A stretch of 64,000 nucleotides of DNA from the sequence record OR670491. The stretch is one strand, 5' to 3'. The notes beneath the pieces were generated by a model, which saw only the letters and a program-made list of their open reading frames with translations, had not been told where the DNA came from and did not search any database. The stretch comes from Escherichia phage vB_EcoM_JNE01. Each line of letters opens with the position of its first letter. Positions within the stretch are counted from its first letter, which is position 1. A program made the translations under genes and the position numbers. This document shows positions 1,783 to 36,051 of this stretch, piece after piece.

Positions 1783-2211
1783 ATGAGTACAGTAAAAATC
1801 AATGTACACTTTCTTGATTCATGGAAAGATGTTTGTACTGGTGTTAGTGAAGTAGAATACAGTACTGAAACTATCCACGCGGAAGATAAATGGCAAGCTG
1901 AATCACAGTTAGAAAAACTAAAAGAAACAGTAGGAACATCAGTTTCTGCTGGAACTGAGCATACACGTAAAATCATTGGTATTGATGAAATTGCACAGGT
2001 TCAGGTATTCTTGACGAACGAACAAATGATGAAGTTCATTCTTGACAACAATGTGGAACTTGCATTGGATGGTTCAGTATGGCAGAAAACTGACGGTACA
2101 AAAGTACGAGTGAAGTACCGTGTTACCATCAATGGAACTGCTATGTGTGGCATGGATTTGGAAGATGCAATCAATTACTACGTAAACAACATAAGAGGAA
2201 AAAAATGCTAA
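1783..2211 (+). CDS. hypothetical protein
   Basis: 142-aa ORF about 30 nt downstream of the promoter -10. Confidence 0.5.
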   Translation: MSTVKINVHFLDSWKDVCTGVSEVEYSTETIHAEDKWQAESQLEKLKETVGTSVSAGTEHTRKIIGIDEIAQVQVFLTNEQMMKFILDNNVELALDGSVWQKTDGTKVRVKYRVTINGTAMCGMDLEDAINYYVNNIRGKKC

Positions 2212-2567
2212 CAGTTATATTGTGTACCTTGATGTGTTGTGTTACAATTATCATATGCCGATTGATCAATAACGCCTCTTTGGAAAAAGCATTTGAGCAT
2301 GAGAGAAATCTTAAAGAGTTGGAGAACCCATCACCAATTAAGAAACAAAAGTCTCCATATTCATTACGTAGGGTGTTGCATTCCAAATCAAAAAAATGGG
2401 GATATTGTCTTTTGGAGGGTGGTGGCATCTACACATCAGTTGATGGATACTACGAAGTGAATTATGATATCAAAGAAGCAATTGAGCTTTTGTGGACTAT
2501 GGAGGATTTAGGTAATTATGAGCGTACTAAGTTTGAATTCTTACAAGATGATCCAGGAACTTCATGA
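2205..2567 (+). CDS. hypothetical membrane-anchored protein
   Basis: Internal ATG of track ORF 2145 (frame +60) preceded by AGAGGA; hydrophobic N-terminus MLTVILCTLMCCVTIIIC. Confidence 0.45.
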   Translation: MLTVILCTLMCCVTIIICRLINNASLEKAFEHERNLKELENPSPIKKQKSPYSLRRVLHSKSKKWGYCLLEGGGIYTSVDGYYEVNYDIKEAIELLWTMEDLGNYERTKFEFLQDDPGTS

Positions 2568-2718
2568 AAAACATGCTATAATTGTAGATGTAGAAAAGCA
2601 GGAAGTTGTGATGAAGAAGAAAGCCTATCAGATTCTGGATAACTTCCGCTCTAAAGCATTCATCATGAAGTTGTGTGCTGACGAGCATTTAGTAGGAAGA
2701 TTTTTATACAAGGAGTAA
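2548..2718 (+). CDS. hypothetical small protein
   Basis: Internal ATG of track ORF 2518; start choice uncertain. Confidence 0.3.
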   Translation: MIQELHEKHAIIVDVEKQEVVMKKKAYQILDNFRSKAFIMKLCADEHLVGRFLYKE

Positions 2719-2724
2719 CACAAC

Positions 2725-3066
2725 ATGAACATGAGTAAAACTATTCAGTACTTGAGTTCAAATTTCAGCAAAATTATCACCAGAGGTGGAATGATTGTCC
2801 ACCCTGAAACTGATGAAATGTATATTGTCCGTTTCGATGCAAGTTCTTATGATCAAGTACTTGTGGTTTCTAAGATGGTAGGGTATAATGAAGTTATTCA
2901 ATTCTGTTGTACAGAATTTGGAATCTACATTAAAGATTCGGATACTAACACAATTTCACATTATTTTTATCACACGTTGATGGGTACTAAAGACTTTGGT
3001 CTTAAATTCGATGATTTAGTACAATGTCACTATATGTTCAAAACCTACCCAGCATCTGGGAACTAA
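2725..3066 (+). CDS. hypothetical protein
   Basis: 113-aa ORF with AGGAG upstream. Confidence 0.5.
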   Translation: MNMSKTIQYLSSNFSKIITRGGMIVHPETDEMYIVRFDASSYDQVLVVSKMVGYNEVIQFCCTEFGIYIKDSDTNTISHYFYHTLMGTKDFGLKFDDLVQCHYMFKTYPASGN

Positions 3067-3078
3067 GGAGTTACAAAT

Positions 3079-3927
3079 ATGTCTAACATTTTCTTCAAAT
3101 CCGTTTCTTTCAATAAAGCTGCTTACTCTTACTCTTATGTAGAAGGACGAGTACTGAACATTGTTGTTGATGGTGTACCACTATCTGTCCATTTTCAATC
3201 AAACGCTGAAGCCATTGACGGACTAAAAGAACTTACTGACCTTTTGAATGGCGAACGTGCGACCAATCAAGACACAGTGAAAACAAATCCACTTGACGAC
3301 CTCGTTAACAAAATGAAAAGTGGTAAAGTACTGAATATCTTGAACGAATGTAATGAAAAACTAAGCGGTGTTCTGGAACGTACAAAAGACACTGTAAGTG
3401 ATAAAGTAAGTGACGCAGCTTACCGTCACATTACCAGTGCAATTGAAGAACGTGCACGTCAACTATTCACTGACGTTGAAGACCGTCTTAAAGATTTAAA
3501 AGATAATCTACCTGATATTGAAGACGTTCTTAACCAGGCATTTAGCACTGAAGAACAACCAAAACAAGAACAAGAACAACCTAAACCAAAACCAACTGTT
3601 AAGACTAAACGTAGCTTCGGTACAGTTGAAGATGTATTTGGTTTTGAAGTAACTTCAACTAAAGAAGTTAAGAAAGAAGCAGTGGATACTTCTGAAGTTC
3701 TAATTGGTGATATGCGTCCATCTGAACTACGTGCAGCAATCGATGTATTTGTAAATGATATTACCAGTACTGAACGTGCACAATCCATGTTCAATAGTAT
3801 CATTTCTAACTTCGATAAAGAAACTGCCGATGAAGCGATGCAAGCATTCAAAGAACTAATCTACAATGTTGCAATCCAACATGAAGATAAAACACTAGAA
3901 CAAGTTCTACGTGAAAACTTCCAATAA
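3079..3927 (+). CDS. hypothetical acidic protein
   Basis: 282-aa ORF with AGGAG upstream, followed by a terminator. Confidence 0.5.
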   Translation: MSNIFFKSVSFNKAAYSYSYVEGRVLNIVVDGVPLSVHFQSNAEAIDGLKELTDLLNGERATNQDTVKTNPLDDLVNKMKSGKVLNILNECNEKLSGVLERTKDTVSDKVSDAAYRHITSAIEERARQLFTDVEDRLKDLKDNLPDIEDVLNQAFSTEEQPKQEQEQPKPKPTVKTKRSFGTVEDVFGFEVTSTKEVKKEAVDTSEVLIGDMRPSELRAAIDVFVNDITSTERAQSMFNSIISNFDKETADEAMQAFKELIYNVAIQHEDKTLEQVLRENFQ

Positions 3928-3964: not shown

Positions 3965-5122
3965 TTATGCAGTATAACCAACAATGACGATGGATGAATC
4001 AAACGGCTCTACAGATCGTACTGTAACGTTGTCATCAGCATCTAGTTCAATCTCACATAGTACTGTATGATTCATATCATCATATACTTGTACTTGTGGA
4101 TATAACTTACCATGTGTTGCTTTAGGTATACTTAGTGTATACATCATTTCAGAATCAACTACCCAATCACTTGAAAGTATTTCATCGAAGTAAGGTGTAG
4201 TCTGGATTGTTTTACCAATTACGCTCAAAGAGATTGGTTCATTATCACTTTGATATACAGTGATATTACCACTTGCATCTACATTGATATCAACACCAAT
4301 GAGAAAATCATTTGCGTTGTAAGCTTGTAGTACTAGATGATCGCCACGGTCATGCACGACTTCAGGTAGGACCGCTTTATATAGCCCATCACTTACGAAA
4401 TCAAACTGTGCCAGTGCGATGTTCGTCACAAATCCAATATCCTCACCTGATTCCAACACGTCAAACTCAACTGTTTTAGTATTGTATATATCGGAAGTAA
4501 GTATTACAGTTCCCTTACCTTGTTGTGTAATAGCATCAACAGGAATGCTAAACACGTCATCGATAATTTCAGTAGTAAAGTATTCAGTACCGTCAGGTAG
4601 GATTACTGTGATTTTCATACCAGTAGTATCAATCACTTCACCTGCGTTAAACAAGCGACCACCAACCAAATCGTCACCAACAAACACTGGGAACATAATG
4701 ATGTTATCAATGTCATGGTCTACAATCCCACATTCAGGGACGTACATATCATATAGAGTGGTTGAGCTACCTAGAATTGTTTTATGTAAGAGGAACTTAT
4801 AAACGAACCCGTTTGGATCAGTACTAAGATTTTGTTCAGTATGGCCTCGAATGAAGAAAGAGTTTTTCTTAATTTCACTGAGTAGTTGATCATTGGTTTT
4901 ATTGTAGTTAAGCTGATACCCATTCGTATCAGTTGTTGTTAGTTGTACTTTGCGATAGATAACGTTAGTTTTTGGATCTAGAATATCGTATAGTCTGTGG
5001 CTTCGTTGACGATAGATTCTCATGTTCTTGAGCTTCGTACCATCTTGTAAATACACACCATCAACAATATACCCACATTCACCAAACTTATAACGTCCAG
5101 CAGCAGCAATTGACCTTGACAT
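3965..5122 (-). CDS. hypothetical protein
   Basis: Long minus-strand ORF; start placed at the Met preceded by GGAGGGAG (residue 21 of track ORF 3965..5182). Confidence 0.5.
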   Translation of the reverse strand: MSRSIAAAGRYKFGECGYIVDGVYLQDGTKLKNMRIYRQRSHRLYDILDPKTNVIYRKVQLTTTDTNGYQLNYNKTNDQLLSEIKKNSFFIRGHTEQNLSTDPNGFVYKFLLHKTILGSSTTLYDMYVPECGIVDHDIDNIIMFPVFVGDDLVGGRLFNAGEVIDTTGMKITVILPDGTEYFTTEIIDDVFSIPVDAITQQGKGTVILTSDIYNTKTVEFDVLESGEDIGFVTNIALAQFDFVSDGLYKAVLPEVVHDRGDHLVLQAYNANDFLIGVDINVDASGNITVYQSDNEPISLSVIGKTIQTTPYFDEILSSDWVVDSEMMYTLSIPKATHGKLYPQVQVYDDMNHTVLCEIELDADDNVTVRSVEPFDSSIVIVGYTA

Positions 5123-5238
5123 TACTCCCTCCATTGGTATAATAATTATAACGTATTTATTCCAGTTCATAAAAAATAGCACTTGACCACTAGTGATATT
5201 TGTTGTATTATTACGTGGAATATTGATAAGGGGATACC

Positions 5239-5823
5239 ATGAGTGTTTTAGAAAAACGTCTAGTAATCAGAGACAACAAAATGATTGTTAAGCTAAACAA
5301 AGATGAGGCTGATTCTTTTCTGGCTAAGGCCATTGAGAAATCAGAGAGATACAAAGTACTAGCACCGGATAACAAATCTCCATATGGTTTTAACCACATA
5401 CATGGTCACTTTGTTGGTATGGTATGTGAGCACGCGTCATTCGTTCTTTTTAATGAAATCGAAAATTCAACGGGTATTAAACTCAACATTGACCCTGCAT
5501 TCCAAAGTGATGGTCGTGATGGTGAATGTGATATTCTTGTTAACAACCTACGTATTGAAGTAAAAGGTATTAAGTACAAATCATGGAAAGACTTCGGTCC
5601 ATGTGTTAGTACTCGACAATTGAAAAATATTCAGAAAAAAGCTGACGTGGTTCTATGGGTATTGTATAATGAGAAAAAGCAGGAGTTCTCATTTGAAGGA
5701 TTCAACTACGTCAAGGACATTAGTTCAGTACCAGTAGTATTGACAGGTGTACCAGGCCGTGTTATGATTGAGAACCATCCAGTACTAAGTATCATTAAAC
5801 CATTACAGGAGCTACCACTATGA
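5239..5823 (+). CDS. hypothetical protein
   Basis: 194-aa ORF with purine-rich RBS. Confidence 0.5.
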   Translation: MSVLEKRLVIRDNKMIVKLNKDEADSFLAKAIEKSERYKVLAPDNKSPYGFNHIHGHFVGMVCEHASFVLFNEIENSTGIKLNIDPAFQSDGRDGECDILVNNLRIEVKGIKYKSWKDFGPCVSTRQLKNIQKKADVVLWVLYNEKKQEFSFEGFNYVKDISSVPVVLTGVPGRVMIENHPVLSIIKPLQELPL

Positions 5824-6050
5824 TTTGTGCAAACGTTTTTCAGGATACTGGTGACGAGTACAATACTAAACTTGGGTTTTTATCTTTCCCTGTTCTACCA
5901 CCCATCGGTGCAACATTAAATCTCACGATTAACGGACATGAAACTTATTTTAAAGTCATTGATATTGAGTACTGTGCTAAGTTGTACGAACGTATTCACG
6001 AATTGGCAATTCCAGTAGATATTGATATCATCGTTAAAGAGGATATTTAA
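5820..6050 (+). CDS. hypothetical protein
   Basis: 76-aa ORF, ATGA overlap with the upstream stop. Confidence 0.4.
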   Translation: MICANVFQDTGDEYNTKLGFLSFPVLPPIGATLNLTINGHETYFKVIDIEYCAKLYERIHELAIPVDIDIIVKEDI

Positions 6051-28596: not shown

Positions 28597-28602
28597 AAGG
28601 TA

Positions 28603-28631
28603 TTGACACAGTTCCCATTTAACAGTATTAT
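28603..28631 (+). promoter_or_regulatory. sigma70-type promoter
   Basis: TTGACA, 17-nt spacer, TATTAT. Confidence 0.45.
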
Positions 28632-28661
28632 GTATGTACACCAACTAATGAGGAATCTGAA

Positions 28662-29021
28662 ATGGCATCTTTAACTGAAATCACTGAACTTAATCCACTG
28701 GCAATTAGTACTGTTCAACGCACCAAGACGTTTTACTTCCGTCCAGCAGAAGGTTGGAAGCGTGGCGTGAATGGTGATTATCGTGAACTGGAAGATAATC
28801 TCGTGGGACGTGTTAATTCAGAACTTAATGTTTATGAAGGTGTTAAGGTTGTACGTTCACATTCTCGTTATTTTGAATACTACATTGAGTCTTCATCAGT
28901 GAATGAAAACAGTTCATTTTCTGTTGACAATACTGATACACTGCGTAATGCAGTATCTATTCTATGTAACATTGCAGAAGAGATGGGATTAACTATCGTA
29001 ACGATTGGTGAGTTAGCATGA
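28662..29021 (+). CDS. hypothetical protein
   Basis: 119-aa ORF, GAGGAA upstream. Confidence 0.45.
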   Translation: MASLTEITELNPLAISTVQRTKTFYFRPAEGWKRGVNGDYRELEDNLVGRVNSELNVYEGVKVVRSHSRYFEYYIESSSVNENSSFSVDNTDTLRNAVSILCNIAEEMGLTIVTIGELA

Positions 29022-29098
29022 TTAAAACTTTTATTCTTACAATGGTATTTGGTTCTTATGGTGCTGGTGTGCACCAGTAACTAAGAAATAAAAAAAGG

Positions 29099-29127
29099 TT
29101 GACAGTAGTCATCCCTTTCTATATAAT
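29099..29127 (+). promoter_or_regulatory. sigma70-type promoter
   Basis: TTGACA, 17-nt spacer, TATAAT; preceded by an A-run. Confidence 0.5.
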
Positions 29128-29158
29128 TAATACATCTTAAGCGAACGAGGATTTACAA

Positions 29159-29575
29159 ATGAATGCAACTCTGAATGGTAAAAATATCAACGTAGCTACT
29201 ATTGCTGCAATTCTGCTAAACAATCGTGAAGTAACTATTGACTTACCACTTACAACTAAAACTGGTATTCTCATTACACGAAATGAATCACACTTCGTTG
29301 GTTACAAAAAGCAAGATGTTATTTCCGTTTGTTTTTATGAATCAGACGGCATCGACGACGAAGTAACTAGTACTGAATACTTCAATACCGACATGATTGA
29401 ATCAGCATCTAAAGCTGCACTTGAGCGTCATGCAAGTGAAGATCCAACTGAAGCATCCAACTTCAGTGTTTCATTTGAAAACACTTTCATCAAAATTGAT
29501 GAAAATGTTATTGATTTTGAAATGGCTGATATCAGTCCGATGGATCTCAATGGCCTTCCAACTGTTAAAGGATAA
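29159..29575 (+). CDS. hypothetical protein
   Basis: 138-aa ORF. Confidence 0.45.
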   Translation: MNATLNGKNINVATIAAILLNNREVTIDLPLTTKTGILITRNESHFVGYKKQDVISVCFYESDGIDDEVTSTEYFNTDMIESASKAALERHASEDPTEASNFSVSFENTFIKIDENVIDFEMADISPMDLNGLPTVKG

Positions 29576-29580
29576 TACAA

Positions 29581-30000
29581 ATGAAATGTCCAATCTGTGA
29601 AAAACAATTGAATGTTGGATCAATTCCTTTCCTTTGGATGGATCGCTACGGTGATAAATGCGTTGCCAGGACTGAATGCTGTGGTCATGCAGTAACAATG
29701 CGTAAGGTTTCAACCTATACAGCAGACCCGTATGTTGGTGAGCGAAGCGAAGATGATTGGGGTACAGAGTTTACTCCTTTGAAGTCTAAAATCCAAGCAC
29801 AAGTAAACGATGAACTTTATGATTCAGTACTGATGCACTTGAAGAACAACGAACTGAGAGAAGCACTTGATGTTATTCGTTCTATTAAGAACCCTTTAAC
29901 AGCAGCTTGGGTGACTCATCAAGTACTGGAATATTTGGATACACCTAGCCAAAAACAAACGCGTAACTGGCTCATTAACGCATTGTATAGTGGAGTATAA
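29581..30000 (+). CDS. hypothetical protein with Cys-rich N-terminus
   Basis: CPIC...C...CC-H arrangement in the first 45 residues. Confidence 0.45.
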   Translation: MKCPICEKQLNVGSIPFLWMDRYGDKCVARTECCGHAVTMRKVSTYTADPYVGERSEDDWGTEFTPLKSKIQAQVNDELYDSVLMHLKNNELREALDVIRSIKNPLTAAWVTHQVLEYLDTPSQKQTRNWLINALYSGV

Positions 30001-30046
30001 GAGTAGTTGTAATCGAAGCTGTAATTTATATGTTGAGGTAGTTCAA

Positions 30047-30139
30047 ATGAAAGTTATGTTTGTATACAACGAATTTGAAGAATGCAAAGGTTGTGGTTTG
30101 CCGAACTATCTTTGTTCCTGTCATGGTGAGTATTTCTGA
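30047..30139 (+). CDS. possible 30-aa Cys-rich micro-protein
   Basis: MKVMFVYNEFEECKGCGLPNYLCSCHGEYF after GAGG; not in track. Confidence 0.25.
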   Translation: MKVMFVYNEFEECKGCGLPNYLCSCHGEYF

Positions 30140-30145
30140 AATAAA

Positions 30146-30177
30146 GGGTTGACTTCGGTCAGCCCTTTTTGCTATAA
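30146..30177 (+). terminator. composite terminator-promoter element
   Basis: GGGTTGAC-TTCG-GTCAGCCC-T5-gc-TATAAT (30172-30177); 30 nt upstream of the denV ATG. Confidence 0.65.
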
Positions 30178-30206
30178 TACTTTCATCAAGACGAGAGGAT
30201 GAAAAC

Positions 30207-30722
30207 ATGACACGCATTAACTTAGTACACGTTAAAGAACTTGCTGACCAACATCTGATGGCTGAATACCGTGAACTCCCACGCGTGTTTGGTGCTGTAC
30301 AAAAACATGTTCAAGCACGTAAACGTGTCCGTGATTTCAAAATTAACAGTACTTACCTGTTAGGTTCAGGTCATGTAACATTCTTCTACGACAAGTTACT
30401 TTACTTACAGAAGCGACATATTGATATTGTCAACGAATGTTTGCGTCGTGGTATGAAGATTCAAAACACTGAAGTAAACGATATCAGTGGGTTCCCTGCT
30501 GAGTTTTGTAATGATTACGTACCATCGGAGTCAGAGATTAAAACATCGCGTGAGCGTTTGATTGAGAAGCTCCAGATGAAGCCTAAGTGGTATAAATTTA
30601 CTGATGTTGAATGTCCACAGTACGTTAAAGATATGCAGAACGTAAGTAGTAAGATCGAATCTAGTACTGATATGTTCGACGAAATTGAAGAACAAATCAA
30701 AGATGAAATGAATAATTATTAA
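30207..30722 (+). CDS. denV: pyrimidine-dimer DNA glycosylase / AP lyase (T4 endonuclease V homologue)
   Basis: N-terminal ~100 aa closely match my recollection of T4 endonuclease V ([45 protein letters not shown]); catalytic Thr2 and Glu23 are present; acidic C-terminal extension. Confidence 0.85.
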
Positions 30723-30760
30723 AGGAAAGGATTGACTTCGGTCACACAAAGGAACATAAC

Positions 30761-30955
30761 ATGTTATTACTATATTCAAAGCGTTTCTGGATTTCTTTCA
30801 TTGTACTTTCGCTAATCGGCTTCGGTGTGAGTATAATCTTTTCGTGGGATGAATTGGGTACATGGTATTATGAAGTTCCGTGGTACATGAAGATAGCTCC
30901 TTGTTACGCGGCATTGTTCGTGTCCTTCCTTATTGTTGTCTTCAGTGAGGATTAG
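30761..30955 (+). CDS. hypothetical small membrane protein
   Basis: 64-aa hydrophobic ORF. Confidence 0.4.
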   Translation: MLLLYSKRFWISFIVLSLIGFGVSIIFSWDELGTWYYEVPWYMKIAPCYAALFVSFLIVVFSED

Positions 30956-31036
30956 TTGATGTAGTGGCTGATAAATCACATGAATTACTAAGGGTACGTT
31001 GGCCTCATCTTAATGAGAAGAAATAAACATTTTAAA

Positions 31037-31068
31037 GGGTTGACTTCTGTCAGCCCTTTTTGCTATAA
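31037..31068 (+). terminator. composite terminator-promoter element
   Basis: GGGTTGAC-TTCT-GTCAGCCC-T5-gc-TATAAT. Confidence 0.6.
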
Positions 31069-31095
31069 TTATTTCATTAACTAAAGAGGTAATAC

Positions 31096-31329
31096 ATGAA
31101 ACTATCTTTTATACGTTTAGCAGAATTCTTCGGTACTGATATCATTACTTTACAACAAATTGCAGACAATACTTCATTAAGTACACAAGAAGTACTTGAC
31201 TTGGATGTAATTAAGTGCGATAATACTTCCATCGATTACAAAGAAGGTCTTGTCGAAAAAGATAAGATTCAGGCTAAGATTAATGGTGCTGGACGGGTTC
31301 AGTACTGGAAAGGAGTTTTAAGTAAATGA
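31096..31329 (+). CDS. hypothetical protein
   Basis: 77-aa ORF, AGAGG upstream. Confidence 0.4.
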   Translation: MKLSFIRLAEFFGTDIITLQQIADNTSLSTQEVLDLDVIKCDNTSIDYKEGLVEKDKIQAKINGAGRVQYWKGVLSK

Positions 31330-32750
31330 AAATTTATATTGATAAATTTGGAACGACTTATGAATATTATGATTATACACATTATAATTCATATATACAA
31401 AAAAATCATAACCAAATGTCACCTTATTTGCATTATGAAGATTTAATGGAACTATTCTCTAAAAATGTAAATTCTATTAAATTTATTGGTTTTAAAGATG
31501 CAACATGGAAAAGTTCACATACGCATGTGTATTTTGAATATGATAATATGGTATATGAACATTCAATATCAAATATCAAAACAAAATTCGCTGATCATAG
31601 ACATAAACCAGGTAGAATATGTAGAACCTTGGAACAAATTATAAATGAGTCCATTTATATATTTAAAAAATATGATAAATTTAATTTTCATAGCAGTGCA
31701 TCATTTAATGGAGCACGAACTATAATCAATTATACAATTGAAGGACGTGAAAGAATATTTTCTATATCATTCAATTCATTAATAAAAGATTTTAAAGGGG
31801 GAAGCCCATGTTATTCATATGAAGAAGTAGAAAATATATCTATAAAAAAATTAAATGAACATAATTTGAGATTTATCTCAATTAGTAAATTTAATGGTGT
31901 GTTTAGTTGTATTGAATATGAACAACCAACACAGAAAGGAAAAAAATATGTTGATTTTAATATATTAATCTATAATGAATGGAAAGGTAATCTACCGAAT
32001 ATAACTAATGAAGAGGTGAATAATCGAATTTCAGAAAAAATGAAAAAACTAAATATCAATGAATATGAAATTGTAGAATATAACAGTACTAGGAGCATGG
32101 TTGAATATACAGTTGATGATATTTCATATACAACTAGTTACGATAAGATTATGCATCCAACTTGGAAAGGTAATCCAAGATATACAAAAGAAAGAATAAT
32201 AAAATTGTCGAAAAAATATTGCAAGGGTAAAAAATTTCAATTTAATAAAATAATTGGTAATGTTAAAGGAATTAATACTATCATTGAATTAGAACTTGAA
32301 AATGGTATGTTTATATATCCAAAATTTATACAATTAAAAGGAGGTTCTGACTTTAATACATCCACTGATGGTAAGATTTTAACAGAAATAATTTATCCTT
32401 TGTTCGACAATTATATCACACAAAAACGTTTTGAAAATTGTAGAAATCCTGAAACTGGATACTTGTTGCCATATGATTTGTATGTTCCAGAATTTAATTT
32501 ATTATTAGAAAAAGATGGAGTGCAACATTACAATCCAACAGCATATTTTAATAAAACATATGAATCATATTTGAAATTGAGAGAGAGAGATGAATTTAAA
32601 AACAAATATGCCATATCAAATGGTTATAATTTCATGCGAATAGCAGATTATGAAGATCATGAAAAAATATTGAAATCTTTCCTTAAACTCATTGAAGAGA
32701 ATCCAGGAAAGCAAATCGTGCAGATCTATGGTGAAGTACAAATTATCTAA
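31326..32750 (+). CDS. AT-rich ORF with C-terminal Vsr/DUF559-like PD-(D/E)xK nuclease motif; candidate homing-type endonuclease
   Basis: 474 aa, rich in Asn/Lys/Ile/Tyr, visibly lower G+C than its neighbours; C-terminal ...PETGYLLPYDLYVPEFNLLLEKDGVQHY fits the D...(I/L)E-x-DG-xx-H pattern of Vsr-like nucleases. Confidence 0.45.
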   Translation: MKIYIDKFGTTYEYYDYTHYNSYIQKNHNQMSPYLHYEDLMELFSKNVNSIKFIGFKDATWKSSHTHVYFEYDNMVYEHSISNIKTKFADHRHKPGRICRTLEQIINESIYIFKKYDKFNFHSSASFNGARTIINYTIEGRERIFSISFNSLIKDFKGGSPCYSYEEVENISIKKLNEHNLRFISISKFNGVFSCIEYEQPTQKGKKYVDFNILIYNEWKGNLPNITNEEVNNRISEKMKKLNINEYEIVEYNSTRSMVEYTVDDISYTTSYDKIMHPTWKGNPRYTKERIIKLSKKYCKGKKFQFNKIIGNVKGINTIIELELENGMFIYPKFIQLKGGSDFNTSTDGKILTEIIYPLFDNYITQKRFENCRNPETGYLLPYDLYVPEFNLLLEKDGVQHYNPTAYFNKTYESYLKLRERDEFKNKYAISNGYNFMRIADYEDHEKILKSFLKLIEENPGKQIVQIYGEVQII

Positions 32751-32757
32751 AACAAAA

Positions 32758-32789
32758 GGGTTGACACTAGTCAGCCCTTTTTGCTATAA
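32758..32789 (+). terminator. composite terminator-promoter element
   Basis: GGGTTGAC-ACTA-GTCAGCCC-T5-gc-TATAAT. Confidence 0.6.
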
Positions 32790-32818
32790 TCATTTCATCA
32801 ACTCAAGAGGATAAAGAC

Positions 32819-33592
32819 ATGACCCGTACAGAGAAAGCAATCCAAATCGAAAAGAACTTCAACAGCATGATGGCAGCTTTGGAATGTTTACTTGATACCC
32901 AAGCTAATTCAATCAATTCCCTGATTGTATCTGGTAAAGGTGGTGTTGGTAAAACTTACAACGTTGACCAGCGTTTACAGAAAGCTGATGATAACTTTGA
33001 AATCGACTACAAAAAGATCAGCGGTAAAGTAACCACTATGGGTTTGTACGAAGCACTGTATCGTTCACGTCATGCCGCTTCAGTACTGTTACTTGATGAC
33101 GTTGATATCTTCAGTGATGAAACTAACATTGACTTGCTCAAAGCAGTGTTGGACACGTCGGAGAAGCGGGTTGTATCTTATGCAACTTCTGGTAAGTACC
33201 TGGAGCAGCAGGGTATTCCTAAGCAGTTTGAATTCCGTGGGAAGGTAATCTTCCTGACGAACAAAAACCTGTCACAGATTGCTAAAGGTAAAAGCAGTTT
33301 AGCACCACACATTGATGCACTGATTACTCGTAGTATCTTTGTTGACCTACAACTGTTCACCAACGAAGAAGTCATGATTCACATTGAGAACATCATGAAC
33401 AAGACTAACATTCTTGAGAACAATGGTGTTAATAAAAATGGTTGTAAAGCAATCCTGAACTGGATGCTGAACAACGAAGAAAACCTGCGTTCACCTTCAC
33501 TGCGTATGCCGTGCCTGATTGCTGGTTTGTACAACAAATTCCCGTATGATTGGGAATCAATGGCAGAAAACATGTTCCTGGAAAAGAACTAA
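32819..33592 (+). CDS. P-loop NTPase
   Basis: Walker A SGKGGVGKT and Walker B-like VLLLDDVD. Confidence 0.55.
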   Translation: MTRTEKAIQIEKNFNSMMAALECLLDTQANSINSLIVSGKGGVGKTYNVDQRLQKADDNFEIDYKKISGKVTTMGLYEALYRSRHAASVLLLDDVDIFSDETNIDLLKAVLDTSEKRVVSYATSGKYLEQQGIPKQFEFRGKVIFLTNKNLSQIAKGKSSLAPHIDALITRSIFVDLQLFTNEEVMIHIENIMNKTNILENNGVNKNGCKAILNWMLNNEENLRSPSLRMPCLIAGLYNKFPYDWESMAENMFLEKN

Positions 33593-33595
33593 TAC

Positions 33596-33624
33596 TTGAC
33601 AGTACTACCAATGTACAGTACAAT
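33596..33624 (+). promoter_or_regulatory. sigma70-type promoter
   Basis: TTGACA, 17-nt spacer, TACAAT. Confidence 0.5.
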
Positions 33625-33651
33625 ACCTGTATTGAAAAGCGAGGAAACGAT

Positions 33652-33981
33652 ATGCAAGAATTTATAACACAAGATTGGGTACGAAGTTTGACATTCTTCT
33701 ATATGTTGGGGTTCGTATATTATCATGTACTGGTTGGTATACTATGGTACTTTAAGAAGCGAGCGTGTTTAACTCTGTATCCAGAATGGATGATTTTATT
33801 TTCTGTCGTACAAGGCGTTGGTGTGTTATTTGGGGCAATAACACATTGGGTGTATGTGACTGACCCTAGATTAATTTATATTGCACCTTACTTTGTATTT
33901 GGATTTGGTATCATATTTTTGTGCATGAGTGCAATATATGGTTTGGTAGTTTATCGTAGAAAAATTGTTGGCGATTTATAA
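33652..33981 (+). CDS. small membrane protein, family B
   Basis: Internal ATG (frame +102) of track ORF 33550; hydrophobic. Confidence 0.45.
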   Translation: MQEFITQDWVRSLTFFYMLGFVYYHVLVGILWYFKKRACLTLYPEWMILFSVVQGVGVLFGAITHWVYVTDPRLIYIAPYFVFGFGIIFLCMSAIYGLVVYRRKIVGDL

Positions 33982-33993
33982 GGGGATACAAAG

Positions 33994-34344
33994 ATGGGTT
34001 CTGATTACATTGAGTTTATTTTGAATAGCGGCATTGTACAAACTATTTCTATGTGTATCTTTTATCTTTATATTTTTGTTTGTGCATTTTTCTTTATTGG
34101 ATGGTACTTTAAACGTCCTTACTACGAAGTATATGCATACAGTGAAGAACTAAGTATTGCTAATAATATCTTAGCGTACTGTAGTGTAGGAGCATTAATT
34201 ATTGCAGTTGCAAGTGATAAAGGCTTAAATGTTGCATTTGCATTCTCTTATGGTGTCTGTGCATTGCCAGCATTCATTTTCTTTGGTATTATATTAGTAC
34301 TGAAATACCTTAACAAACTACGTAACCACATTCCAGAGGCATAA
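33994..34344 (+). CDS. small membrane protein, family B
   Basis: Hydrophobic; C-terminus ...LKYLNKLRNHIPEA. Confidence 0.45.
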   Translation: MGSDYIEFILNSGIVQTISMCIFYLYIFVCAFFFIGWYFKRPYYEVYAYSEELSIANNILAYCSVGALIIAVASDKGLNVAFAFSYGVCALPAFIFFGIILVLKYLNKLRNHIPEA

Positions 34345-34345
34345 T

Positions 34346-34684
34346 ATGGAGTACTTTCTGAGTTTATTACCAATGCACATTCTAATCGCTACAGGTTATT
34401 ATGTATTCTTTGCAGTATTCTTTTTCCTGATGTGGTTCTTCAAACGACCCATTTCAGTCGTGATTGACCGTAACTACTGGCCTCCTATGTTACACGTTTG
34501 GTACTGGTTTTCGTGCTTTATGTCTATTATTCACTACGCTTTGATTAGTACTGGTCAACGTTCAAATGGGGAAGGTATTTGTACTGTGTTTTTTATATTA
34601 GGAACAGCGGTATATATATTTCTTCTAGTAACACCACTGATTCAGAAGTTACGTTCTAAGATTCCTGACGTGAGAGGTCACTAA
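34346..34684 (+). CDS. small membrane protein, family B
   Basis: Hydrophobic; C-terminus ...QKLRSKIPDVRGH. Confidence 0.45.
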   Translation: MEYFLSLLPMHILIATGYYVFFAVFFFLMWFFKRPISVVIDRNYWPPMLHVWYWFSCFMSIIHYALISTGQRSNGEGICTVFFILGTAVYIFLLVTPLIQKLRSKIPDVRGH

Positions 34685-34686
34685 CA

Positions 34687-34995
34687 ATGTTTGAATTTGT
34701 AATGTTTACAGTAATTTCATTTTACTTTTGTATTTGCTGGGTTGGATTTCTCTTTGCACTGAAATCTTTTATCTTCTTTGAGAAGCAAGCAAAAGAGTTT
34801 TGGTTCCCAATCGCAGTAGTGACAGTAACATCACTGATTTGGGTATGGAAATTGTCATATGGTACATATGATGACATTCAGGTAGCACAATTTCTTCTTG
34901 GCCCTTGTGTAGTTGTATTTGTAGTAAGTTCAATTCCACCATTGTGTCGTGCAGTGAAGTCGTTTCATATGAAACAAAAAGCTAAACGCAGATAA
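34687..34995 (+). CDS. small membrane protein, family B
   Basis: Hydrophobic, basic C-terminus. Confidence 0.45.
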   Translation: MFEFVMFTVISFYFCICWVGFLFALKSFIFFEKQAKEFWFPIAVVTVTSLIWVWKLSYGTYDDIQVAQFLLGPCVVVFVVSSIPPLCRAVKSFHMKQKAKRR

Positions 34996-35006
34996 AGGAT
35001 AATAAC

Positions 35007-35324
35007 ATGCAAATTGAATTGATTCTATTCATCATCTGTGCTGTGTACATGTTATCGTGTTGGGTTGGATACCTGTTCGCAATCCCTGTATTTGACTTTT
35101 TTGAGAAACAATGCAAGAATGGTTTTATATGGGCGTGGGGTGCAACATTCAACAGTGTAATATGGACAGTACTACTTATATTCCATCCTCCTGAAGATAT
35201 GTACGGTGTGAGGATAGTACTGGTTATGACGCTTATATTAGTTGGATTATCAGCCTGTGAAGCACTATACAAAGTATTCACTTCCGTTCGTTTGAAGTAC
35301 TTGAATAAGAGGAAAGATGTATGA
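35007..35324 (+). CDS. small membrane protein, family B
   Basis: Hydrophobic; C-terminus ...LKYLNKRKDV. Confidence 0.45.
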   Translation: MQIELILFIICAVYMLSCWVGYLFAIPVFDFFEKQCKNGFIWAWGATFNSVIWTVLLIFHPPEDMYGVRIVLVMTLILVGLSACEALYKVFTSVRLKYLNKRKDV

Positions 35325-35698
35325 TTACATTTACATTAAATGCATTGACAGTAATTCTATGCTATAGTACACTAGTCTACATTGGTAAATTCTTTTGTGT
35401 AAGATTCTTTGAAGCACAATACGATGCAGCGGCTGAAGACGATATTGATAATGTTGCTATCAGTGCTATGTGTTATTGTTTTGGTTTATTCTTCACTGTA
35501 TGTGCATGGTTAACGTACTATTATGATTTTGGATACCTAGAGGGTGACAGATTCTTACTAGTGTTGTTATTGGTATTCGGTTCATTTTGTGTCGTGATAC
35601 ACTTTTTTATTCTTGTGTGTACTAGTGTAGTATATAAGTTAGTTCCGTTCTTTAAAGATTTGCACAGTAAAATCCGTGCTAAGAAGAGAGGTGAGTGA
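35321..35698 (+). CDS. small membrane protein, family B
   Basis: Hydrophobic; overlaps upstream stop; C-terminus ...SKIRAKKRGE. Confidence 0.45.
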   Translation: MITFTLNALTVILCYSTLVYIGKFFCVRFFEAQYDAAAEDDIDNVAISAMCYCFGLFFTVCAWLTYYYDFGYLEGDRFLLVLLLVFGSFCVVIHFFILVCTSVVYKLVPFFKDLHSKIRAKKRGE

Positions 35699-36051
35699 TG
35701 TTATCATTTGCGGGTCAGATTATCGTCATGGGTATTACATTATTATTCACGGTGAATAGTATTATTTTACTCGGTAAGTACTTTAATATTCGTCCAATGA
35801 ATAAGTTGTACGATAAATTAAAAGAAGATAATCCATTCTATGTATTTTTATCTGTAGCAATTGGCATAGGTTTCGTTTTAGAAGTTATTGGTTTAATTGC
35901 ATCTGCACCAGTTGTGATTGTTTTTGGAATCTTTTCTGCTACATGTGGGTTATTATTATTTTCTTTAGGTTTAATACTCGACCTATCGATTAACATTGGT
36001 ATTAAACTTAAGAAGTTTCATGAAAAGCAACTTCAGAGGGACGTAAAATGA
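35695..36051 (+). CDS. small membrane protein, family B
   Basis: Hydrophobic; overlapping start. Confidence 0.45.
   Translation: MMLSFAGQIIVMGITLLFTVNSIILLGKYFNIRPMNKLYDKLKEDNPFYVFLSVAIGIGFVLEVIGLIASAPVVIVFGIFSATCGLLLFSLGLILDLSINIGIKLKKFHEKQLQRDVK

What the first reader, a model, noticed from the sequence alone, without database searches (positions are those of the whole stretch)
31326..32750. Compositionally foreign AT-rich ORF with a Vsr/DUF559-like nuclease motif
This 474-aa ORF looks much lower in G+C than its neighbours and almost lacks the AGTACT motif. Its C-terminus (PETGYLLPYDLYVPEFNLLLEKDGVQHY) fits the PD-(D/E)xK Vsr-like endonuclease pattern, and the N-terminal two-thirds contains internal repeats. 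It lies between a denV module and a P-loop ATPase, each with its own terminator-promoter unit, consistent with a free-standing homing-type endonuclease insertion.
Basis: partly seen in the sequence, partly recalled or inferred. Interest (0 to 1): 0.6.

Follow-up and report, generated by a model that had tools for sequence, protein, structure and literature searches.

The report
Free-standing Vsr-like homing endonuclease gene
This AT-rich 474-codon gene in a 121Q-like jumbo coliphage is a selfish, mobile "homing" nuclease gene of a known (Vsr-like/EDxHD) type, sitting in a hot spot where related phages carry many different nuclease genes or none. That makes it a good example of a known phenomenon, not a new kind of system.

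Summary
ORF 31326-32750 (+) encodes 474 aa at 25.1% G+C, the lowest of any equal-sized stretch in the window (mean 35.9%, 4.6 SD).

- **N-terminal region:** it holds five ~62-aa repeats with no detectable homologue.
- **Host and distribution:** the window is an Asteriusvirus (121Q/PBECO4-like jumbo phage). The same gene occurs in only two of 50,697 phage records, at the same site, differing at 5 of 1425 nt. The ATPase gene immediately downstream is only ~60% identical.
- **Empty site:** Salmonella phages SD-15_S21 and SD-2_S15 show an exact empty site, so the insert is essentially the ORF alone.
- **Hot spot:** at least eight other nuclease-type ORFs start at the same nucleotide in other relatives. 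Those with a Vsr-type domain share a near-identical final 60-90 nt, and WPEC3 keeps a frameshifted remnant of that end.

Verdict: a free-standing EDxHD/Vsr-like homing endonuclease gene in a turnover hot spot. It is a new member of a known kind. Cleavage activity and target site are untested.

The parts
31326..32750 (+). Free-standing homing endonuclease gene (474 aa), 25.1% G+C
   Evidence: ORF. GC minimum of the window. Differs at 5 of 1425 nt from the copies in SHEFM2K and ELP-22. Absent with a precise junction in SD-15_S21.
31431..32360 (+). N-terminal array of five ~62-aa repeats (aa 36-100, 101-162, 163-224, 225-287, 288-345), the presumed DNA-recognition region. Orphan at sequence level.
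   Evidence: Self-alignment score 76 vs 39 +/- 6.4 for shuffles. Repeat alignment A2. No homologue in 5.8 billion proteins. No PHROG family. AF2 single-sequence model has pLDDT 37. Only weak similarity to zinc-ribbon CapR/DUF723-type modules.
32346..32747 (+). C-terminal Vsr-like (EDxHD-type, PD-(D/E)xK-fold) nuclease domain, aa 341-474. Key residues: D384 (32475-32477), E395, K396, D397, H401 (32526-32528), D422 (32589-32591), K425.
32670..32750 (+). 3'-terminal ~80 nt of the ORF, near-identical at nucleotide level in the Vsr-type HEGs of this slot whose 3' ends were compared. Acts as a right-hand homology arm together with the cassette.
   Evidence: 100% nt identity, third codon positions included, to the G17 paralogue over the last ~70 nt, while the rest of the domain is ~50% aa identical. 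The same holds for the P0004, P0005 and P0006 loci. A frameshifted remnant survives in WPEC3.
31096..31329 (+). 77-aa ORF (phrog_34150, function unknown). Its 3' end is the common left junction and supplies the Shine-Dalgarno AAGGAG (31310-31315) for the HEG. Its TGA stop is created by the HEG's ATGA.
   Evidence: Eight aligned left junctions. In the empty site the ORF runs on to 88 aa.
31034..31069 (+). Composite terminator-promoter cassette (hairpin 31034-31059, TTGACT-18-TATAAT 31040-31069) that drives the 77-aa ORF + HEG unit
   Evidence: Promoter scan 11/12 with TG. Hairpin -16.8 kcal/mol, z -6.2. 16 similar cassettes in the window.
32754..32790 (+). Composite terminator-promoter cassette directly after the HEG stop (hairpin 32754-32781, TTGACA-18-TATAAT 32761-32790). 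Terminates the HEG unit and drives the ATPase gene. Forms the right boundary of the insertion.
   Evidence: Promoter scan 12/12. Hairpin -17.2 kcal/mol, z -5.0. The equivalent hairpin is annotated as a terminator in G17 and UE-S1. Identity to SHEFM2K collapses from about 32766 onward.
32819..33592 (+). P-loop ATPase gene (phrog_1250), the conserved right neighbour. It exists as two allele classes about 66% identical.
   Evidence: Window allele is ~95% identical to WPEC3/CMSTMSU, 87-88% to ph0011 and UE-S1, and 57-67% to SHEFM2K/ELP-22/121Q/PBECO4.
30207..30722 (+). denV (pyrimidine-dimer DNA glycosylase), the conserved left anchor of the variable slot
   Evidence: PF03013 E 1e-14, phrog_1183 E 6e-59.

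Best explanation
The ORF is a free-standing homing endonuclease gene (HEG) of the Vsr-like 'EDxHD' family, resident in a jumbo coliphage of the genus Asteriusvirus.

Shown:
- It is a compositionally foreign insert consisting of essentially the ORF alone.
- It lies between the last sense codon of a conserved 77-aa ORF and the terminator-promoter cassette of a conserved ATPase gene.
- It is transcribed with the 77-aa ORF from the upstream cassette promoter. It is translated from an AAGGAG inside that ORF, with an ATGA stop/start overlap.
- The protein has a C-terminal Vsr-fold nuclease domain that keeps the family's invariant residues D384, E395, D397, H401, D422 and K425. Before it lies an N-terminal array of five ~62-aa repeats.
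- The gene is nearly identical in three phages whose flanking genes are 2-40% diverged.
- An exact empty site exists.
- The same nucleotide position holds at least eight other nuclease-type ORFs in relatives.

Inferred:
- During mixed infection the repeat array binds a long DNA site at or near the unoccupied or differently occupied allele. A likely site is the junction ...GGAGTTTTAAGTAAA|AAAAGGGTTGAC..., which the insert disrupts.
- The Vsr-like domain, probably as a dimer as in I-Bth0305I, makes a double-strand break.
- Recombinational repair from the HEG-carrying genome copies the gene in. The homology arms are the 3' end of the 77-aa ORF on the left, and the conserved last ~80 nt of the nuclease ORF plus the cassette on the right.
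- Repeated invasion, replacement and decay at this site explain the allelic series and the WPEC3 remnant.
For: Fold and family:
- AF2 model of aa 341-474 has pLDDT 89.6.
- The exhaustive profile search finds 22,860 representatives. Distant ones pass the Pfam thresholds for DUF559, DUF2726 and DUF5889.
- PHROG hits to 'homing endonuclease' and 'intron encoded nuclease' map to this domain only.
- tblastn finds the domain in 269 phage records. Several of those listed are annotated as group I intron proteins, and one as 'group I intron-associated VSR homing endonuclease'.
- Residue spacing D384-(12)-K396-(5)-H401 equals D196-(12)-N208-(5)-H213 of I-Bth0305I (PMC3239194).

Mobility:
- Only 2 of 50,697 phage records carry the gene.
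- 5 of 1425 nt differ from those copies. By contrast, denV is 93-96% identical, the 77-aa ORF 89-98%, and the ATPase gene 57-67%. The break begins about 15 nt after the stop codon.
- The empty site in SD-15_S21 and SD-2_S15 has a cassette identical to that of the HEG-bearing SHEFM2K/ELP-22.
- Eight aligned junctions share the same left boundary.
- Paralogues P0004, P0005, P0006 and the G17 gene sit in the same slot.
- The last ~70 nt are 100% identical between paralogues.
- WPEC3 carries a remnant.
- The ORF is the GC minimum of the window.
- No group I intron or other Rfam family lies within 30000-34000.
Against: - No cleavage activity, target site or homing has been demonstrated for this protein or any close relative.
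- The window protein itself reaches no Pfam threshold and no PDB sequence hit. The fold assignment rests on a predicted structure.
- The helix-1 acidic residue of the EDxHD motif is ambiguous. The alignments place D348 or K350 there, with E354 one helical turn away.
- The N-terminal array has no detectable relative and no confident model, so DNA binding is assumed, not shown.
- The empty site is documented only in SD-series assemblies. These come from one study and show other deletions or truncations.
- The shared arms mean that ordinary homologous recombination could move the gene without any nuclease action.
Confidence: 0.75

Rival explanations
1. The gene is a passenger moved only by homologous recombination between conserved arms: the 3' end of the 77-aa ORF, the shared 3' end of the nuclease ORF and the PeSL-like terminator-promoter cassettes. 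The nuclease does not drive its own spread. It serves the phage in another way, for example by degrading host DNA or the DNA of competing phages (exclusion).
For: There are 16 near-identical cassettes in the window, and cassettes lie at indel boundaries between relatives. This matches the PeSL-mediated shuffling described in T4-type phages (PMC2839356, PMC4122927). The last ~70 nt are 100% identical between paralogues. The larger module (77-aa ORF + HEG) is bounded by two cassettes and is absent as a whole in ph0011 and UE-S1.
Against: The ORF-only indel seen against SD-15_S21 is flanked by a cassette on one side only. The slot is filled almost exclusively by nuclease-type ORFs of at least two catalytic families, which is the signature of HEGs rather than random cargo. 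The domain family is associated with group I introns elsewhere. The gene is far more conserved than its flanks.
Confidence: 0.15
2. The gene is a decaying or inactive HEG. The nuclease or the DNA-binding array has lost function (the zinc ligands of the ancestral modules are gone), and the ORF persists only because it was acquired recently.
For: The repeats lack the Cys/His knuckles present in the modules of paralogues. The helix-1 Glu is not clearly conserved. HEG decay at this site is documented by the WPEC3 remnant.
Against: The ORF is intact in three phages, with only 3 aa differences. Positions D384, E395, D397, G398, H401, D422 and K425, all invariant or near-invariant in the family, are retained. 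The repeats remain detectably periodic.
Confidence: 0.07
3. The gene encodes a DNA-repair enzyme that works with the neighbouring denV, for example a Vsr-like mismatch or lesion endonuclease.
For: The best structural match is Vsr, and the gene is close to denV.
Against: The gene is absent from most relatives that keep denV. Its composition is foreign. It is 474 aa with a large repeat array, unlike ~150-aa Vsr. The residue before the catalytic His is Q400, where Vsr has the intercalating W68. denV and the ORF lie in different transcription units.
Confidence: 0.03

Closest known systems
I-Bth0305I and the EDxHD (Vsr-like) homing endonuclease family (Taylor et al. 2011, PMC3239194; PDB 3R3P)
   Different: I-Bth0305I is encoded inside a group I intron in recA and uses NUMOD/HTH motifs. 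This gene is free-standing at a gene boundary, with no intron, and carries five ~62-aa orphan repeats. It also has a ~30-aa C-terminal extension (a helix plus a beta-hairpin...SFLKLIEENPGKQIVQIYGEVQII) that only closer relatives share.
E. coli Vsr very-short-patch repair endonuclease (PDB 1CW0/1VSR)
   Different: Vsr is a ~155-aa stand-alone bacterial repair nickase with a zinc site and intercalating Trp residues. This protein has Q400 before the catalytic His, a 340-aa N-terminal array and a mobile, patchy distribution in phages.
Free-standing HEGs of T4-type phages (Seg GIY-YIG and Mob HNH genes; 'intronless homing')
   Same: Both are AT-rich ORFs inserted between conserved genes, variably present among close relatives, and associated with sharp changes in flank identity. 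This comparison rests on established knowledge. See also Barth et al. 2023, PMC10055350, on HEGs at the boundaries of genetic exchange and on HEG turnover.
   Different: The catalytic fold differs: Vsr-like here, not GIY-YIG or HNH. Here the insert is exactly ORF-sized and shares a start position with at least eight alternative nuclease ORFs.
PeSL composite terminator/promoter cassettes of T4-like phages (Arbiol et al. 2010, PMC2839356; Comeau et al. 2014, PMC4122927)
   Same: The flanking GGGTTGAC-loop-GTCAGCCC-TTTTTGC-TATAAT units are stem-loop terminators fused to sigma70-type promoters. They are repeated many times and lie at indel boundaries.
   Different: They occur in a different phage lineage (Asteriusvirus). 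Here the -35 hexamer lies inside the 5' arm of the hairpin. They bound the larger module, not the ORF-only indel.
Pfam DUF559 / DUF2726 / DUF5889 (PD-(D/E)xK clan) and PHROG 9084/559
   Different: The window protein itself is below every Pfam threshold. The phrog_559 label 'HNH endonuclease' does not describe this domain, which has a restriction-endonuclease-like fold.

Membership tests
EDxHD (Vsr-like) homing endonucleases | Catalytic domain with the Vsr endonuclease fold | tested here: met
EDxHD (Vsr-like) homing endonucleases | Conserved D, x, H, D catalytic positions (Vsr D51/H64/H69/D97; I-Bth0305I D196/N208/H213/D222) | tested here: met
   D384, K396 (the variable 'x'), H401 and D422 are present. 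The 12 and 5 spacing is identical to I-Bth0305I. D384, H401 and D422 are invariant in alignments A1 and A4. The residue mapping is by motif spacing and structural match, not by a residue-level superposition.
EDxHD (Vsr-like) homing endonucleases | Conserved Glu in the first helix (the 'E' of EDxHD) | tested here: inconclusive
   Distant relatives have G-E in helix 1. In the window protein the alignments place D348 (A1) or K350 (A4) there, and E354 lies one turn away. Model coordinates could not be inspected.
EDxHD (Vsr-like) homing endonucleases | N-terminal NUMOD/HTH DNA-binding motifs (typical of described members, not strictly defining) | tested here: not met
   No Pfam or PHROG family matches aa 1-345. 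No homologue found. The region holds five orphan ~62-aa repeats instead.
Homing endonuclease genes in general | Presence/absence polymorphism at a fixed site among close relatives, with a precise empty site | tested here: met
   Present in the window, SHEFM2K and ELP-22. The exact empty site ...AAGTAAA|AAAAGGG... is found in SD-15_S21 and SD-2_S15. Caveat: the empty-site records all come from one study.
Homing endonuclease genes in general | The element is more conserved than its flanks, indicating recent horizontal spread and flank co-conversion | tested here: met
   The ORF is 99.65% identical, against 89-98% for the upstream ORF and 57-67% for the downstream ATPase gene.
Homing endonuclease genes in general | Site-specific cleavage of the element-free allele and super-Mendelian inheritance | not testable with these tools
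   Needs in vitro cleavage assays and phage crosses.
Vsr mismatch-repair endonucleases | Small stand-alone protein with the intercalating Trp (W68) next to the catalytic His, and a zinc site | tested here: not met
   The protein is 474 aa with a 340-aa N-terminal array. Q400 precedes H401, and the family consensus is Q-H. W68/H69 adjacency is taken from PMC3239194.
Pfam DUF559 (PF04480) | Score above the gathering threshold | tested here: not met
   The window protein has no DUF559 hit at E<=1 (full protein) or E<=10 (nuclease domain alone). One of the 8 close paralogues reaches E 0.013. Distant homologues P0041 and P0143 pass the threshold. Relationship is therefore transitive and structural only.
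HNH endonucleases (label carried by phrog_559 and several GenBank paralogues) | beta-beta-alpha-Me fold with an H-N-H motif | tested here: not met
   No HNH family appears in the Pfam scan. The matching part of phrog_559 (positions 315-416) is the Vsr-fold domain.
PeSL-type terminator/promoter cassettes (flanks) | Stable stem-loop fused to a sigma70-type promoter, repeated, and located at indel boundaries | tested here: met
   Hairpins of -16.6 to -17.2 kcal/mol, z -4.7 to -6.2. Promoter matches of 11-12 out of 12. 16 copies in the window. Boundaries shown.

The most novel reading that the evidence does not exclude
The site may be more than a passive hot spot. It could be a standardised 'docking bay' in which HEGs compete with one another. 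The bay has a fixed left arm that supplies the promoter, Shine-Dalgarno and start position. It has a fixed right arm made of the last ~80 nt of the nuclease ORF plus the cassette. Between these arms, unrelated DNA-recognition arrays are swapped onto the same Vsr-like nuclease. In one case (G17 vs PBECO4) the same N-terminus is joined to two different nuclease families. Under this reading each new array targets rival occupants of the same locus, which would give frequency-dependent diversification of specificity. The five zinc-less ~62-aa repeats of this ORF would then be a previously undescribed modular DNA-recognition array.
Probability: 0.2. Interest if true: 0.6.

Novelty: new member of a known kind. 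Interest (0 to 1): 0.35.

Why it matters
The finding gives a clean, well-delimited natural example of a free-standing Vsr-like (EDxHD) homing endonuclease gene. It comes with an exact empty site, a set of at least nine alternative occupants at one nucleotide position, a decayed remnant and a mosaic right flank. Together these cover invasion, replacement and decay of a HEG within one genus of jumbo phages. The EDxHD family has a single characterised prototype, so the ORF and its paralogues offer a ready panel of one nuclease domain fused to different recognition arrays for specificity studies. For annotation, the analysis shows that the 'HNH endonuclease' labels on the paralogues are wrong for this domain. 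It does not reveal a new kind of system.

Tried and rejected
- **Direct sequence searches.** phmmer of the whole protein against PDB sequences gave nothing. The 8-sequence domain profile gave only spurious ankyrin/DARPin matches. The 35-sequence profile reached only the AbaSI Vsr-like domain, at E 0.043. Pfam gave no meaningful hit for the protein itself. NCBIfam and PADLOC gave nothing. The fold assignment therefore rests on predicted structure plus transitive homology.
- **N-terminal array.** BLASTP against the occupants of the same slot in 121Q, WPEC3 and PBECO4 showed no similarity. The homologue search found only the protein itself. PHROGs gave nothing. The AF2 single-sequence model had pLDDT 37, so it was not used for a fold search.
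- **Link to zinc-ribbon modules.** hhalign against zinc-ribbon (CapR/DUF4379/DUF723-type) modules of paralogues gave probability 54%. Against a 150-module profile it gave probability 7% with score 14.5, versus 4.5-8.4 for column-shuffled controls. This is suggestive of a degenerate, zinc-less version of those modules but not demonstrated.
- **ECO103 4-12-1 contig as a second empty site.** Rejected. It carries yet another nuclease-type ORF starting at the same position.
- **Group I intron or other structured RNA around the ORF.** Rejected, with no Rfam match at E<=1.
- **AGTACT depletion as evidence of foreignness.** True but not significant on its own.
- **Other copies in the window.** There are no paralogues of the ORF elsewhere in the 64-kb window.
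- **Terminator scan.** The pattern scanner did not list the cassette hairpins. Direct folding shows they are stable.
Full report
**1. The observation**

The ORF listing gives an ORF at exactly 31326-32750 (+), ATG start, 474 aa. Its G+C is 25.1% against 35.9% for the window. Among all 1425-nt windows of the 64-kb sequence (mean 35.9%, SD 2.4%), the minimum is 25.1% and falls exactly at position 31326. No other region drops below 29% (profile).

AGTACT occurs 243 times in the window and once in the ORF. However, about 4-5 copies are expected from local density, and seven other AGTACT-free gaps of about 1 kb or more exist, so this is not significant on its own.

The quoted C-terminal peptide is present at aa 374-402.

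The internal repeats are real. The best internal local alignment scores 76, against 39 +/- 6.4 (maximum 59) in 100 shuffles. There are five units of about 62 aa: aa 36-100, 101-162, 163-224, 225-287 and 288-345.

The neighbours are as described. denV lies at 30207-30722 (PF03013, phrog_1183) and a P-loop ATPase at 32819-33592 (phrog_1250). A 64-aa ORF and a 77-aa ORF (31096-31329, phrog_34150) lie between denV and the ORF.

**2. Local anatomy**

Three near-identical units of the form AAAGGGTTGAC-loop-GTCAGCCCTTTTTGCTATAAT lie at about 30143-30178, 31034-31069 and 32754-32790.
- They are the three best sigma70-type promoter matches in 30000-34000, at 11-12 of 12 positions with an extended -10 TG.
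- Their hairpins are stable: -16.6 to -17.2 kcal/mol, z -4.7 to -6.2, with no shuffle folding as well.
- The equivalent hairpins are annotated as terminators in G17 and UE-S1.
- Sixteen such cassettes occur in the window.
- They resemble the PeSL composite terminator/promoter motifs that mediate module shuffling in T4-like phages (PMC2839356, PMC4122927).

The ORF has no cassette of its own. Its ATG overlaps the TGA stop of the 77-aa ORF (ATGA), and an AAGGAG sits 10 nt upstream, inside that ORF. The 77-aa ORF and the ORF therefore form one transcription unit between two cassettes.

**3. The C-terminal domain is a Vsr-type nuclease**

A word-indexed search of 5.8 billion proteins found only eight relatives. 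All share the last ~130 aa and differ completely in the N-terminal part.

In their alignment (A1), the invariant positions include D384, E395, D397, G398, H401, D422 and K425 in full-protein numbering.

An exhaustive profile search found 22,860 cluster representatives at E<=0.001 and 6,165 at E<=1e-10. Among ten distant ones, several pass the Pfam gathering thresholds of DUF559, DUF2726 or DUF5889. Their N-terminal parts carry DUF723, DUF4379 or CapR zinc-ribbon modules.

The window protein itself hits no Pfam family, and sequence searches of the PDB fail.

AlphaFold2 on alignment A1 gives a confident model, with pLDDT 89.6, pTM 0.84 and an alpha-beta-beta-beta-alpha-beta core.
- Foldseek ranks E. 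coli Vsr first, followed by PvuRts1I/AbaSI Vsr-like domains.

Taylor et al. (PMC3239194) define the EDxHD family by Vsr-equivalent residues: I-Bth0305I D196/N208/H213/D222 correspond to Vsr D51/H64/H69/D97. The spacing D384-12-K396-5-H401 in the window protein is identical to D196-12-N208-5-H213, and D422 follows.

The helix-1 glutamate is ambiguous. The alignments place D348 or K350 there, and E354 lies one turn later.

PHROG matches ('homing endonuclease' phrog_9084, 'intron encoded nuclease' phrog_7140, and positions 315-416 of phrog_559) map entirely to this domain. The 'HNH endonuclease' label of phrog_559 and of several GenBank paralogues is wrong for this domain.

tblastn finds the domain in 269 phage records. 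Several of those listed are annotated as group I intron proteins, including a 'group I intron-associated VSR homing endonuclease' in a Staphylococcus phage terminase gene.

**4. The N-terminal array is an orphan**

- Residues 1-345 have no homologue other than the protein itself and no PHROG or Pfam family.
- The single-sequence model has pLDDT 37, so it was not used.
- Each repeat reads helix, strands, then 'KG.P...'. In paralogues, the equivalent ~65-aa modules end in a G-C-x-x-C zinc knuckle.
- Profile-profile comparison with those modules gives probability 54% (E 1e-4). With a 150-module profile it gives score 14.5, versus 4.5-8.4 for column-shuffled controls, at probability 7%.

A zinc-less, degenerate derivative of the zinc-ribbon module is plausible but not shown.

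**5. Mobility**

The window is an Asteriusvirus (121Q/PBECO4-like jumbo coliphage). Only SHEFM2K and BAU.Micro_ELP-22 carry the same gene, at the same site. In both it is annotated 'homing endonuclease'.

Along the locus, identity between the window and these two phages is as follows:

| Segment | Identity to SHEFM2K / ELP-22 |
|---|---|
| denV | 93-96% |
| 77-aa ORF | 98% / 89-95% |
| The ORF | 99.65% (5 of 1425 nt differ) |
| ATPase gene | 57-67% |

The collapse in identity begins at about 32766, in the loop of the hairpin 15 nt after the stop codon. The window's ATPase allele is instead ~95% identical to that of WPEC3/CMSTMSU and 87-88% to those of ph0011 and UE-S1. The same gene therefore sits next to both allele classes of its right-hand neighbour.

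Salmonella phages SD-15_S21 and SD-2_S15 contain the 77-aa ORF joined directly to the cassette...GGAGTTTTAAGTAAA|AAAAGGGTTGACTTCGGTCGGCCC.... This cassette, including its unusual GTCGGCCC arm, is identical to the one in the HEG-bearing SHEFM2K/ELP-22.
- Relative to this empty allele, the insert runs from the T of the ATG to the stop codon, give or take an A-run.
- Without the insert, the small ORF lacks its TGA and runs on to 88 aa, ending in the TAA of TATAAT.
- Caveat: all SD records come from one study and show other truncations.

No Rfam family, including group I introns, matches 30000-34000.

**6. A hot spot with an allelic series**

The denV-ATPase interval takes many forms among relatives:

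| Phage or locus | Occupant of the slot |
|---|---|
| ph0011 | Nothing (denV directly followed by the ATPase gene) |
| UE-S1 | Small ORFs only |
| 121Q | 487-aa phrog_681 'endonuclease' ORF |
| PBECO4 | 379-aa phrog_681 'endonuclease' ORF |
| WPEC3 | 516-aa phrog_681 'endonuclease' ORF |
| G17, and probably Sharanji and JP4 | 372-aa paralogue with the Vsr-type domain (context checked only in G17) |
| Loci encoding P0006, P0004, P0005 | Vsr-type paralogues of 444, 466 and 472 aa |
| ECO103 4-12-1 contig | Another repeat-bearing ORF (contig truncated) |

Eight aligned left junctions share ...CAGTACTGGAAAGGAGTTTTAAGTAA. They then diverge from the first codon of each occupant, at TAATG or TAAATG. 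Every occupant therefore uses the same promoter, Shine-Dalgarno and start position.

On the right, the compared Vsr-type occupants share a near-identical last 60-90 nt.
- The window and G17 are 100% identical over the last ~70 nt, third codon positions included, while the rest of the domain is ~50% identical at protein level.
- At 32717 the window agrees with WPEC3 and G17, not with SHEFM2K. This places a crossover within this arm.
- WPEC3 retains a frameshifted ~55-nt remnant of this 3' end, directly upstream of the same cassette and ATPase allele as the window.
- G17's Vsr-type ORF and PBECO4's phrog_681-type ORF share their first ~90 aa at 42% identity, with the first 30 nearly identical, but have different nuclease domains.

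This is the pattern of HEG invasion, replacement and decay. It fits published observations that nuclease genes mark the boundaries of genetic exchange between phages and undergo turnover (PMC10055350).

**7. Mechanism, rivals and novelty**

Shown: the fold, the conserved residues, the expression context, the exact indel, conservation above the flanks, and the allelic series.

Inferred: the repeat array recognises a long site at or near the unoccupied or rival allele. The Vsr-like domain then cuts, and repair copies the gene using the two arms.

Rivals:
- Recombination-only spread via arms and cassettes, with the nuclease used for another purpose (0.15).
- An inactive, decaying HEG (0.07).
- A denV-linked repair enzyme (0.03).

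None of these is favoured, for three reasons. The slot is filled almost exclusively by nuclease-type ORFs. The ORF-only indel has a cassette on one side only. The ORF is intact, with all invariant residues, in three phages.

The gene is already labelled 'homing endonuclease' by automated annotation in two GenBank records. It belongs to a described family that includes free-standing phage members. I rate it a new member of a known kind. The orphan repeat array and the highly standardised docking site are the only unusual aspects.

Noticed in passing
whole window; e.g. 31300-31307: The palindrome AGTACT occurs 243 times against 21.8 expected (11-fold). The octamer CAGTACTG occurs 53 times against 1.0 expected (53-fold). 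It appears about equally in all three reading frames (74/49/55), with 65 copies in the ~15% non-coding DNA, so it is a DNA-level signal and not a codon effect. Density doubles in 48-64 kb. One copy lies ~20 nt upstream of the HEG insertion point and is conserved in all eight left junctions. No paper combining 'AGTACT' and 'jumbo phage' was found. Function unknown.
   Followed up: partly
whole window: Four palindromic hexamers are completely absent: CCATGG, CAGCTG, AGGCCT and AGCGCT (0 observed vs 4-9 expected). This suggests restriction-site avoidance.
   Followed up: no
window 10928, 18012, 20011, 21571, 22067, 23982, 29096, 30146, 31037, 32758, 63040 (+ strand) and 5 on the - strand: Sixteen copies of a composite terminator-promoter cassette (GGGTTGAC-loop-GTCAGCCC-TTTTT..TATAAT, with the -35 hexamer inside the hairpin arm). 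They resemble the PeSLs of T4-like phages and lie at indel boundaries between Asteriusviruses.
   Followed up: partly
L003 (WPEC3) about 4650-4712: A frameshifted ~55-nt remnant of the 3' end of a Vsr-type HEG (…CCAGGAAAGCAAATCGTGCAAGATCTATGATGAAGTACAAATTATCTAA) lies just upstream of the ATPase cassette. This phage now carries a different (phrog_681) nuclease ORF in the slot.
   Followed up: yes
L008 (G17) 2158-3276 vs L007 (PBECO4) 4721-5860: Two occupants of the same slot share their first ~90 aa (MFEQYY.NEDGEKVYF..., 42% identity). They end in different nuclease families (Vsr-like vs phrog_681), which implies nuclease-domain swapping on a common N-terminus.
   Followed up: partly
window 32819-33592 and relatives: The conserved P-loop ATPase gene next to the HEG exists as two allele classes only ~66% identical at DNA level among otherwise ~90-95% identical phages. 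One class is the window/WPEC3/CMSTMSU/ph0011/UE-S1 type and the other the 121Q/PBECO4/SHEFM2K/ELP-22 type. The switch occurs at the cassette.
   Followed up: partly
window 28600-30139: The window carries an extra module upstream of denV that is absent from this position in seven relatives. It contains a 119-aa ORF (28662-29021) that is a ~77% DNA-identity paralogue of the phrog_32140 ORF found downstream of denV in relatives. It also contains a 138-aa ORF and a Cys-rich 139-aa ORF (29581-30000).
   Followed up: no
window 33550-36051: A tandem series of seven small ORFs (102-143 aa) encodes very hydrophobic proteins, several ending in a similar short basic tail. It looks like a paralogous family of small membrane proteins directly downstream of the ATPase gene.
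   Followed up: no
L009, L010 (Salmonella phages SD-15_S21, SD-2_S15): The SD-series genomes (310-326 kb vs ~350 kb for relatives) show a lengthened denV CDS, and SD-2_S15 has a truncated ATPase ORF. These are either real deletions or assembly problems. This matters because they are the only records of the empty site.
   Followed up: no
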